DNA of 63,944 bases, filler included, from Reclinomonas americana ATCC 50394 (Eukaryota): assembly GCA_048213135.1 (NCBI GenBank). It is 16 parts of 16 records of this genome, joined end to end, with 100 filler letters (N's around TTAATTAATTAA, not from the genome) between each part and the next. Parts side by side here need not be neighbours in the genome. Positions count along the whole stretch, not along the records: positions 44,975 to 47,301 come from AFZH01022991.1; 15 more parts are not named here. One strand, written 5' to 3'. How positions within the stretch are numbered: the stretch's first letter is position 1; each line of letters starts with the position of its first letter. Made by a program: the position numbers and the translations under genes. The notes below the pieces were generated by a model that was not told where the DNA came from, did not search any database, and saw only the letters and a program-made list of their open reading frames with translations. Shown piece by piece: positions 45,003 to 47,083 of the stretch.

Positions 45003-46960
45003 CTCGAGAATGCCAGGAAGAGCGACAAGAATGGCACCGCCTCCACTGGCTGCACCGGTGGCGTCACCACGGTTGGCATTGCTCCCTCCAACAACATTCT
45101 TTGAAGCCACATTGGAGAGGAATGTACAGCGGCGTATGGCCACCTGCTCAGGTGTGACAGTGAGATCAGGCTGCCATACCAATGACGGTGACGCGTGAAA
45201 CCTTGTTCGTATTGCTCCCAAGCGAGAGTAGCAGCGCGCCACCTCCATTTTGAGAGCCTGACGCATTGTTTGTTCCTGGACTCGATCCTCCGTTTCCATT
45301 TTTGTTGCCCTCATTACTATCAAAGTGACAGCCTTCAATCATCTATTGCGGCCACGTGTGAGCACCATATTCACGGGAATAATAACAAACACTTGGGTGC
45401 GAACTAGTTTCGACATCGATCCGGTGCCCATCGAGACTAGAATTACACCACCTCCATTCACGCTGCTAGATGCATAGGCTGAAACTGTGCATGTTGACGC
45501 ACGCGAAAAATCCACCAGTTAGAGTCCTAAACCATGGGCTCACAATGCCTCTTCCGTCGTGGTGTGCGTGTGACTAAACCTGTAGGACTGCTACCACCGT
45601 TCCCATTGTAGCTTGCAGTATTCGATGTGAAGGTGCAGTTGCTGATGGTCTGCGACAACAACAGCAAGAGAGGACTCCGTCAACAACAACAACACTTCAC
45701 AATACACACACCAAGTGAGAATAACACGAATACAAACAATCTCTCATTCCAAGCTTCTGCAAACAGACACCAAACAATCAGAGAGAGAACACACCTGGCT
45801 TGTAAAACCACCGGCGAGGATCAGCATGACACCACCACCATTTGCGAAACTGCTGCCATCCGCACTCCCACTGCCATTTCCTGCACACACAAAAGCACAC
45901 AACAACCAAGTCAACCGCACGTGCAATCAACCACACACACTCACATGTAACCACTTGAACGGCGACACCAGAACAACATGCACCACACATGCACACCAAG
46001 TGTTCTCAACTACTCACCTGCACGACCGCCATTCCCATTGTTGTTTGCAGTATTCGATGTAAAGGTGCAGTTGCTGATGGTCTGCGACAACTACAGCAAG
46101 AGAGATCTCCGTCAGCAACAACCCACAAGACGCACACAAAGTGAGGGTGACACGAGTATAAACAATCTGTCTACTCATTTCAAGCTTCTGCAAACAAACA
46201 GCCAAACAATCAGAGAGAGAACACACACCTGGCTTGTAGAACCATGGAAGTCGATCAGCATGACACCACCACCATTCGTGCTACCAGTGCTATCCGCACT
46301 CCCGCCAAATCCTGCACACACAAAGCACACATCAACCAAGTCAACCGCACGTGCAATCAACCACAAACACTCACTTGTCGTCATTCGAACAGCGACACCA
46401 GAATAACATGCACCGCACATGCACACACCAAGTGTGATGTATACTACTCACCTATACTTGTACCACCATTCCCATTGTTGTTTGCAGTATTCAATGTGAA
46501 GGTACAGTTGCTGATGGTCTGCGACAACTACAGCAAGAGATGTCTCCGTCAACAACAACACCTCACAATACGCACACAAAGTGAGAGTGACACGAATATA
46601 AACAATCTCTCATTCCAAGCTTCTGCAAACAGACAACCAAAAATCAGAGAGAGAACACACCTGGTTTGAAGAACCACCATAGATGACGAAGATCAGCACG
46701 ACACCACCACCATTCGTGCCACTCTTGCCATCCGCGCTCCCACTGGAAGACCCTGCACACACAAAGCACACACATCAACCAAGTCAGCCACACGTGCAAT
46801 CAACCACATTCACACACACACACACACACACAAATGTCACATAAACAGCAACACCACATCAACAAACACCACACATGCACACCAAGTGTGATTTATACCA
46901 CTCACCACCATTTCCATTGTTGTTCGCAGTGTTCGATGTGAAGGTGCAGTCGCTGATGGT
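45003..46960 (-). CDS. Pmp-like (FxxN/GGGV repeat) beta-helix adhesin-type protein, 5'-truncated at the telomere array, 3' end in gap
   Basis: Phase-compatible open exons at 46906-46960, 46661-46752, 46452-46518, 46229-46311, 46018-46081, 45795-45880 and 45580-45649, plus three further exons. They encode repeats such as TISNCTFTSNTANNNGNG...NGGGVMLI, IEGCHFDSNEG...NGGGALLL and IRRCTFLSNVA...GGGAILV. Confidence 0.8.
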
Positions 46961-47083
46961 CTGCGACAACAACAGCAAGAGAGATGTCTCCGTTAACACC
47001 ATCGCCACTCGCAATACGCACACAAAGTGAGAATGACACGAGTATAAACAATCTCTCATTCCAAGCTTCTGCAAACAAACAAC
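45592..47083. repeat. Tandem ~435-bp repeat, ~3.4 copies (two exons plus two introns per unit)
   Basis: The shared exon boundary recurs at 45649, 46081, 46518 and 46960 (periods 432, 437, 442). Confidence 0.92.

What the first reader, a model, noticed from the sequence alone, without database searches (positions are those of the whole stretch)
45003..47083. Apparent satellite is a coding array: Pmp-like adhesin growing by tandem duplication of a two-exon module
Seen: each ~435-bp unit holds exon A (TISNCTFTSNTANNNGNG, phase 0->1) and exon B (G..SADG..NGGGVMLI..SQ, phase 1->0). All seven exons are open and their length differences are multiples of 3 (55/67/64/70 and 92/83/86 nt). Older diverged repeats follow downstream. 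Known: FxxN plus GGA(I/L/V) repeats define Chlamydia Pmp-like beta-helix adhesins. Inference: each duplication adds beta-helix rungs with hypervariable loops, suggesting a subtelomeric variable surface protein system. It is invisible in the ORF track.
Basis: partly seen in the sequence, partly recalled or inferred. Interest (0 to 1): 0.72.

Follow-up and report, generated by a model that had tools for sequence, protein, structure and literature searches.

The report
Telomere-cut beta-helix exon array
The apparent satellite is a run of duplicated two-exon units, each predicted to encode one turn of a beta-helical surface protein, but this copy has lost its whole front end, likely at a recent chromosome break capped by an unusual TCAAGGG telomere, so it is likely a broken member of a large gene family rather than a working antigen-switching system.

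Summary
Observation confirmed. Ten minus-strand exons with GT-AG introns splice in frame to 291 codons without a stop. Across 85 sister exons, lengths change in steps of three, intron lengths do not, and motif cores are under purifying selection. Each unit is one Pmp-type rung (FxxN, loop, GGGV), with an intron inside the loop. The family has at least 50 open upstream exons genome-wide. A paralog's upstream exon folds as a beta-helix (pLDDT 92.5); the array itself was not folded.

This fits recent telomere healing; no read covers the junction.

The 'subtelomeric variable-antigen system' is weakly supported. Most relatives are not near telomeres, loops evolve about neutrally, and expression could not be tested.

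The scan already found similar two-exon arrays elsewhere in this genome and telomere-healed genes in other genomes. The newest element is the TCAAGGG telomere motif, absent from the lists I searched.

The parts
47084..47301 (+). 31 perfect TCAAGGG repeats running to the contig end; likely a newly added telomere
   Evidence: same motif and outward polarity in 14 of 14 arrays examined
46961..47083 (-). 3' remainder of a B-to-A intron of the array, cut by the telomere; the last three chromosomal bases (CAA on the + strand) are in register with the repeat
   Evidence: comparison with the three sister units
46906..46960 (-). exon A1, 55 nt, phase 0->1, FxxN half of a rung
46661..46752 (-). exon B1, 92 nt, phase 1->0, loop end plus GGGV half
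46452..46518 (-). exon A2, 67 nt
46229..46311 (-). exon B2, 83 nt
46018..46081 (-). exon A3, 64 nt
45795..45880 (-). exon B3, 86 nt
45580..45649 (-). exon A4, 70 nt, last unit of the young array
45405..45478 (-). older B-type exon, 74 nt (an in-frame acceptor 6 nt upstream gives 80 nt)
45202..45342 (-). exon C, 141 nt, phase 0->0, a whole rung with canonical GGAL
45003..45143 (-). exon D, 141 nt, phase 0->0, a whole rung with canonical GGAI; the gene runs off the contig after it
44975..47301 (.). the whole contig G000:C7524 (2,327 nt), bounded by artificial N-linkers in the window

Best explanation
The array is a spliced run of two-exon units, each predicted to encode one Pmp-type beta-helix rung, in a gene copy that ends at TCAAGGG repeats inside an intron and was likely beheaded by a recent chromosome break that telomerase healed. 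Steps: (1) Shown. The unit is bounded by phase-0 introns and split by a phase-1 intron inside the loop between FxxN and GGGV, so whole units can be gained or lost, and loop ends can shift by codons, without losing frame. (2) Shown. Paralogs carry different unit numbers (C118: 8 A exons; C878: 9; the C5302-C5305 gene: at least 10 if those contigs are one gene), and units are mosaic. Inferred: unequal crossing-over and gene conversion. (3) Inferred from paralog C878. The intact protein has a signal peptide, a long beta-helix stalk, a cysteine-rich part and several membrane helices, and displays loops on the cell surface, probably for adhesion or ligand sensing. (4) Inferred. This copy lost its promoter, start, signal peptide, the upstream beta-helix exons and at least one array unit. 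It is a young pseudogene, and the repeat array may itself have promoted the break.
For: Splice model and frame. Core pN/pS 0.29 (0.14-0.52) over the family and 0.19 (0.04-0.65) in this copy; cores are less diverged than introns in all five gene groups tested. 37 of 37 spliced rungs are open, 48-55 aa, with loops of 22-28 aa, matching the FxxN-omega loop-GGA(I/L/V) rung of PMC10715098 (passages). Paralog upstream exon: pLDDT 92.5, best solved match a beta-helix at Z 20.1, rmsd 2.6, 228 aligned. The window's spliced peptide scores E 2e-5 against that exon's profile, against E 1 for its reversal and 200 shuffles. The paralog downstream exon hits 935 proteins at E<=0.001, the best carrying PF02415/PF13229. 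Home-made PHI test: p 0.002 (C878, 6 units), 0.006 (5 units), 0.002 (19 units). Telomere: 14 of 14 arrays point the G-rich strand outward, 13 end within 10 nt of a contig end and 1 at a gap. Telomerase RBD found twice over the cut-off. TTAGGG x6 found at one internal place and TTTAGGG x5 at none. At 5 of 5 junctions with an uncut homologue, the last 2-3 chromosomal bases are in register with the repeat, as in PMC5550746 (passages). The lack of decay suggests under about 5% neutral drift since the loss.
Against: No read or contig covers the junction, so a chimera is not excluded. The one public contig on the region (depth 2) lacks one base in the T run at 45299, which would shift exon C if real. 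Splicing is unverified by RNA. Direct Pfam scans of window and paralog exons gave no PF02415 or PF13229 hit. The rung profile found only 2 of 120 homologues. The Atlas hit (0.93) came with a recognition value below the tool's threshold. The profile comparison of exon D with the folded exon was weak (probability 14%). The array itself was not folded. PHI over all 29 units was not significant (p 0.49). Two further subtelomeric junctions had no uncut copy to compare, and the 18S and C2459 junctions show at most 1 base in register.
Confidence: 0.72

Rival explanations
1. The array and family are as described, but the telomere junction is an assembly or library chimera, and the gene is intact in the cell.
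For: Fragmented assembly (16,441 contigs). No read support at the junction. All exons and splice sites are still perfect. Orphan upstream halves exist (C9516, C9829, C11465, C14374).
Against: Only 3 nt are shared at the junction, too little for an overlap misjoin and in the register that telomerase priming predicts. The same signature appears at 4 other ends. No other contig above 76% identity covers or continues this copy, while haplotype pairs in this assembly are 88-94% alike.
Confidence: 0.12
2. One reading: a subtelomeric variable surface-protein system (var/VSG-like), in which telomere-linked copies are switched or recombined to diversify exposed loops.
For: Large family, mosaic units, variable loops around invariant cores. 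This copy is at a telomere. Paralog C2459 is also cut at its 5' side by four short telomere-like repeats. A distant member (38% identical, C931) lies about 10 kb from a telomere-polarity array. Telomere-truncated var genes are a known by-product of such systems (PMC5550746, passages).
Against: 1 of 65 fetched family loci held telomere repeats. C118 is at least 60 kb from either scaffold end, and many members are internal. Loop pN/pS is below 1. This copy's three units form their own clade (support 0.97) and are only 75-79% like other genes' units, so it is not a current donor. Short TCAAGGG runs are common inside dispersed repeats, which weakens C2459.
Confidence: 0.1
3. The truncated copy is still functional: transcribed inward from the telomere and translated from an internal start as a shorter membrane-anchored beta-helix, or used as a cassette for alternative splicing.
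For: Exons, frame and splice sites are intact. Phase-compatible units would allow skipping.
Against: Only 123 nt of intron lie between the telomere and the first exon. There is no signal peptide, whereas paralog C878 has a likely one. Intactness is explained by a recent break. Nothing here shows alternative splicing.
Confidence: 0.05
4. A non-coding satellite whose open exons are chance.
For: Invisible to ORF scans and no direct Pfam hit. Introns are 77-87% alike between units in four of the five gene groups (about 68% in C118).
Against: 85 exons without a stop, length steps of three, core pN/pS 0.29, and embedding in a conserved gene in every paralog.
Confidence: 0.01

Closest known systems
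Chlamydial Pmp repeat region (PF02415; PMC10715098, passages read)
   Same: Rung made of FxxN, an outward loop of variable length, and a GGA(I/L/V)-type motif; number of rungs varies; beta-helix fold predicted for the family.
   Different: The young rungs use GGGV and long 22-28-aa loops. There is no autotransporter barrel; the C-terminus is cysteine-rich plus several membrane helices. Rungs are encoded by spliceosomal exon pairs. No direct PF02415 hit.
Trichomonad Pmp-like proteins (PMC6701047, passages read) and eukaryotic beta-helix/Cys-rich/multi-TM proteins such as P0045
   Same: Eukaryotic expanded family with FxxN/GGA repeats anchored by helical membrane segments; P0045 has the same overall layout and is the best hit of the rung profile.
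   Different: Trichomonad Pmps have one TM and an ATPITK motif; this family has several predicted TMs and intron-bounded rung modules.
Tetrahymena 90-bp-exon LRR gene arrays (PMC6564038, passages read)
   Same: One structural repeat per intron-bounded unit, fixed intron phase, variable unit number among paralogs, and units often closest to units of other genes (18 of 35 here); unequal crossing-over proposed.
   Different: The repeat is a beta-helix rung, not an LRR. The unit is two exons with alternating phases 0 and 1, exon length varies in codon steps, and there are tens of genes, not thousands.
Telomere healing of broken chromosome ends, e.g. truncated var genes of Plasmodium falciparum (PMC5550746, passages read)
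   Same: Telomere repeats fused inside a surface-protein gene, no subtelomeric element between them, and a few bases able to pair with the telomerase template at the junction.
   Different: The break is in an intron of a tandem exon array, and the motif is TCAAGGG. Read-level proof is lacking here.

Membership tests
Chlamydial Pmp autotransporter adhesins | Repeated, paired FxxN and GGA(I/L/V) motifs | tested here: met
   FxxN in every rung; canonical GGAL/GGAI in exons C and D; GGGV variant in the young units. Related non-canonical GGGI/GGGM forms are listed in PMC10715098.
Chlamydial Pmp autotransporter adhesins | Beta-helical repeat region | tested here: inconclusive
   Met for the paralog's upstream exon. 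The spliced array was not folded; the link is by motif and by E 2e-5 to that exon's profile.
Chlamydial Pmp autotransporter adhesins | C-terminal autotransporter beta-barrel and Pmp middle domain | tested here: not met
   3' exons of paralogs C878 and C118 give no such Pfam hit and hold a cysteine-rich stretch and hydrophobic helices.
Chlamydial Pmp autotransporter adhesins | PF02415 match over the curated cut-off | tested here: not met
   No hit in the window and paralog exons scanned. The spliced array could not be scanned against Pfam. Homologues do carry it.
Chlamydial Pmp autotransporter adhesins | Adhesion to a host or substrate | not testable with these tools
   Inference from likeness only.
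Trichomonad Pmp-like proteins | Single C-terminal TM with ATPITK motif | tested here: not met
   Four 19-residue windows over hydropathy 1.9 in the C878 3' exons; no such motif seen in the translations.
Intron-bounded repeat-exon arrays (Tetrahymena LRR type) | One repeat per unit with fixed intron phases | tested here: met
Intron-bounded repeat-exon arrays (Tetrahymena LRR type) | Variable unit number and recombination among units | tested here: met
   Unit counts differ. PHI significant in 3 of 4 sets. Nearest unit lies in another gene for 18 of 35.
Subtelomeric antigenic-variation systems (var/VSG type) | Family clustered near telomeres | tested here: inconclusive
   Mostly not: 1 of 65 fetched loci with repeats and many internal members. 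But this copy, C2459 and C931 are telomere-linked, and most telomeric contigs are too short to test.
Subtelomeric antigenic-variation systems (var/VSG type) | Diversifying selection on exposed loops | tested here: not met
   pN/pS 0.74 (0.54-0.97) family-wide; 1.38 (0.48-5.31) in this copy's few units.
Subtelomeric antigenic-variation systems (var/VSG type) | Mutually exclusive expression and switching | not testable with these tools
   No RNA holder listed.
De novo telomere healing | Repeats fused to non-subtelomeric sequence inside a gene | tested here: met
   (no shared subtelomeric element on this contig)
De novo telomere healing | Short template-pairing microhomology at the junction; telomerase present | tested here: met
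De novo telomere healing | Junction supported by independent reads | tested here: inconclusive
   The three public runs do not cover the junction.

The most novel reading that the evidence does not exclude
This protist has an undescribed telomere motif (TCAAGGG) and a surface-receptor diversification system in which intron-bounded beta-helix rungs, each with a splice junction inside its exposed loop, are swapped among dozens of genes, with telomere-proximal copies continually broken in their arrays, healed, and recycled as recombination donors, as in var genes but at the grain of a single rung.
Probability: 0.1. Interest if true: 0.75.

Novelty: new variant of a known kind. Interest (0 to 1): 0.4.

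Why it matters
The array is a clean, young example of a Pmp-type beta-helix being lengthened one rung at a time by exon-pair duplication, with the intron placed in the exposed loop. It shows that 'satellites' in intron-rich protist genomes can be coding. The telomere cut shows how such genes die. The TCAAGGG motif looks like this organism's true telomere and was not in the motif lists searched, so it would add a variant to the known telomere repeats and predicts a testable telomerase RNA template. None of the parts is a new kind of mechanism.

Tried and rejected
1. Expression: no RNA holder listed, so no evidence either way. The public DNA contigs covered only 45249-45619.
2. Single-sequence fold of a paralog's downstream exon failed (pLDDT 35.1). 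A sequence search of solved structures gave nothing under E 0.36. Foldseek gave no match at E<=0.001 for the good model, though its top rows were mostly beta-helices.
3. Pfam scans of family exons gave only sub-threshold DUF7631/MSC hits. The search of cluster representatives with the upstream exon found only 2 proteins.
4. The neighbouring contigs C7522, C7523 and C7525 showed no telomere arrays, and C7523 does not continue the gene. No near-identical allele or continuation was found.
5. I first took C10133 for a third member joined to a subtelomere and rejected it: the shared ~110 nt is a dispersed repeat also found internally.
6. An early impression that introns are more alike than exons came from simple repeats and disappeared after masking.
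7. TTAGGG and TTTAGGG rejected as this genome's main telomere.
8. Literature on TCAAGGG: no telomere paper by title in three library searches (listings only). Absent in all 14 rotations and strands from TeloBase Table S1. Absent in the forms searched from Fulneckova 2013 (main text and one of two supplements; could not search the other) and from the TelFinder supplement. The live TeloBase database and subscription journals were not searchable, so novelty of the motif is not proven.
9. The organism's lineage was not determined.
10. A search for a paper on this free-living-protist family gave no relevant title.

Full report
Setting. The window is a string of contigs joined by N-linkers. The finding occupies its own 2,327-nt contig, G000:C7524, in a 108-Mb, 16,441-contig eukaryotic assembly. 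Nothing left of 44975 or right of 47301 in the window is a true neighbour. The assembly contains haplotype-like pairs 88-94% alike. The lineage was not determined.

Observation. On the minus strand, ten exons joined at GT-AG sites give 291 codons with no stop. The introns average 4 stops per 100 codons.

The 431-nt unit has 107 matches in the genome. In 15 contigs I selected as the young subfamily, 41 A and 44 B exons were delimited, none with a stop. B lengths are 2 mod 3 in 44 of 44. A lengths are 1 mod 3 in 38 of 41 by rule, and in the other three at the homologous donor 7 nt on. Intron lengths are unconstrained. Five A exons were incomplete and left out, and one B exon of C9062 was missed by my motif.

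Core codons have pN/pS 0.29 (0.14-0.52) and loop codons 0.74 (0.54-0.97). After masking simple repeats, cores differ by 3-16%, introns by 13-32%, loops by 18-32% and the B-exon tails by 17-45%. So the array is coding and constrained in its cores. The loops vary about as fast as neutral DNA, with no evidence of positive selection.

What it encodes. Each A+B pair gives 48-55 residues: FxxN, a 22-28-residue loop, GGGV (37 of 37 open). This is the rung layout described for Pmp repeat regions, where a variable omega loop is framed by the two motifs and non-canonical forms such as GGGI and GGGM occur (PMC10715098, passages). The phase-1 intron lies in the loop. The two older rungs (exons C, D) are single phase-0 exons with canonical motifs.

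Paralog C878 shows the whole gene: a likely signal peptide (judged by eye), a 327-codon upstream exon, nine units, a long downstream repeat exon, a cysteine-rich stretch and several hydrophobic helices. The upstream exon has 50 matches at E<=1e-20 among 71 candidates, none with a stop. Folded with a 28-paralog alignment it gives pLDDT 92.5 and matches solved right-handed beta-helices at Z about 20, rmsd 2.6 over 228 residues. Foldseek alone found nothing at E<=0.001. The window's spliced peptide matches that exon's profile at E 2e-5, against E 1 for controls. The downstream exon's best hits carry PF02415 and PF13229.

Against this: no direct Pfam hit, only 2 of 120 homologues found by the rung profile, a low-recognition Atlas hit, a weak profile match of exon D, and no fold of the array itself. 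It works like a Pmp repeat region, but it is not a chlamydial Pmp (no autotransporter) or a trichomonad-type one (PMC6701047, passages).

How it grows. Unit number differs among paralogs. This copy's three complete units form a clade (0.97), and six of C878's seven do (0.84). But 18 of 35 units have their nearest neighbour in another gene, and a home-made PHI test detects recombination in three of four sets (p 0.002, 0.006, 0.002; all 29 units 0.49). This is the pattern described for Tetrahymena LRR exon arrays and attributed to unequal crossing-over (PMC6564038, passages).

31 perfect TCAAGGG units start at 47084, inside a B-to-A intron, 123 nt upstream of exon A1. I examined 14 such arrays. 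They came from the first 100 of 185 matches and all 88, so mid-length arrays on high-numbered contigs may be missed. All 14 point the G-rich strand outward; 13 end within 10 nt of a contig end and one at a gap. Seven share at least 300 nt of a subtelomeric element, cut at different points; this contig shares none.

A telomerase RNA-binding domain is present twice. TTAGGG and TTTAGGG arrays are nearly or wholly absent. At five junctions with an uncut homologue, the last 2-3 chromosomal bases are in register with the repeat (CAA here). That is the mark of telomerase priming described for P. falciparum, where healed ends truncate var genes (PMC5550746, passages).

The copy shows no decay. Simulated neutral drift of 5% leaves frame and splice sites intact 6% of the time, so the loss is likely recent. 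No allele or continuation above 76% was found. The junction lacks read support, and the one covering contig (depth 2) differs by one base in a T run at 45299.

Subtelomeric system? Mostly not. 1 of 65 fetched family loci held two or more repeat units, C118's array is in mid-scaffold, and many members are internal. For it: C2459 is cut in exon C by four short repeats near its contig end, and a distant member lies about 10 kb from a telomere-polarity array. Short repeat runs are also part of dispersed elements, so C2459 is ambiguous. A modest enrichment is not excluded.

Novelty. Two-exon beta-helix arrays were already reported on other pieces of this genome, and telomere-healed genes in other genomes. 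No earlier finding held the word TCAAGGG or resembled this unit by sequence. The motif was not found as a telomere in the searches and supplements listed under Tried and rejected; one supplement and the live database were not seen.

Verdict. A real coding array and a known kind of mechanism, with a young beheaded copy and an apparently unlisted telomere motif. Interest 0.4.

Noticed in passing
window 47084-47301; G000 C13, C883, C8922, C9695, C9724, C10105, C10722, C11387, C11504, C14290, C14775, C15131, C15552: TCAAGGG behaves as this genome's telomere repeat (outward polarity in 14 of 14 arrays, TCAAGG variants, telomerase present) and was not in the motif lists searched.
   Followed up: partly
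L062 (G000:C9695) 1663-1845: Telomere repeats are joined at about nucleotide 56 of an 18S rRNA gene (Rfam RF01960, E 1e-15): a healed rDNA end.
   Followed up: partly
L089 (G000:C2459) contig 11760-11799: A second family member is cut in exon C by four short telomere-like repeats plus about 11 other bases at the contig end.
   Followed up: partly
L074 (G000:C13) about 257265: A telomere array interrupts a coding-like stretch with a P-loop motif (NACHT-like, recalled label). The stretch is 72-90% like the region beside the WD40-repeat ORF just downstream of the C118 paralog.
   Followed up: no
L088 (G000:C12280) 1-400: Exon C is preceded directly by sequence like the intron upstream of the large 5' exon, suggesting that the array and that exon were deleted.
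   Followed up: no
G000:C878 about 34390-34450 (L029): One array unit lost its normal A-exon donor by a deletion; a weaker GT remains at a frame-preserving position.
   Followed up: no
L127, L130, L133, L134, L135, L138: A ~236-nt dispersed repeat, 92-100% identical in six copies, contains short TCAAGGG runs. A second such element resembles a stretch in the family's 5' intron.
   Followed up: no
L077 (G000:C14290) 1-518: A telomere array caps very AT-rich DNA unlike the rest of this GC-rich genome.
   Followed up: no
L153 (G000:C130) about 15800-15900: A single internal mixed TTAGGG/TTTAGGG run beside a gap, decaying into simple repeats.
   Followed up: no
window 42305-42515: A 47-nt tandem repeat (4.4 copies, 82%) on another contig of the window.
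   Followed up: no
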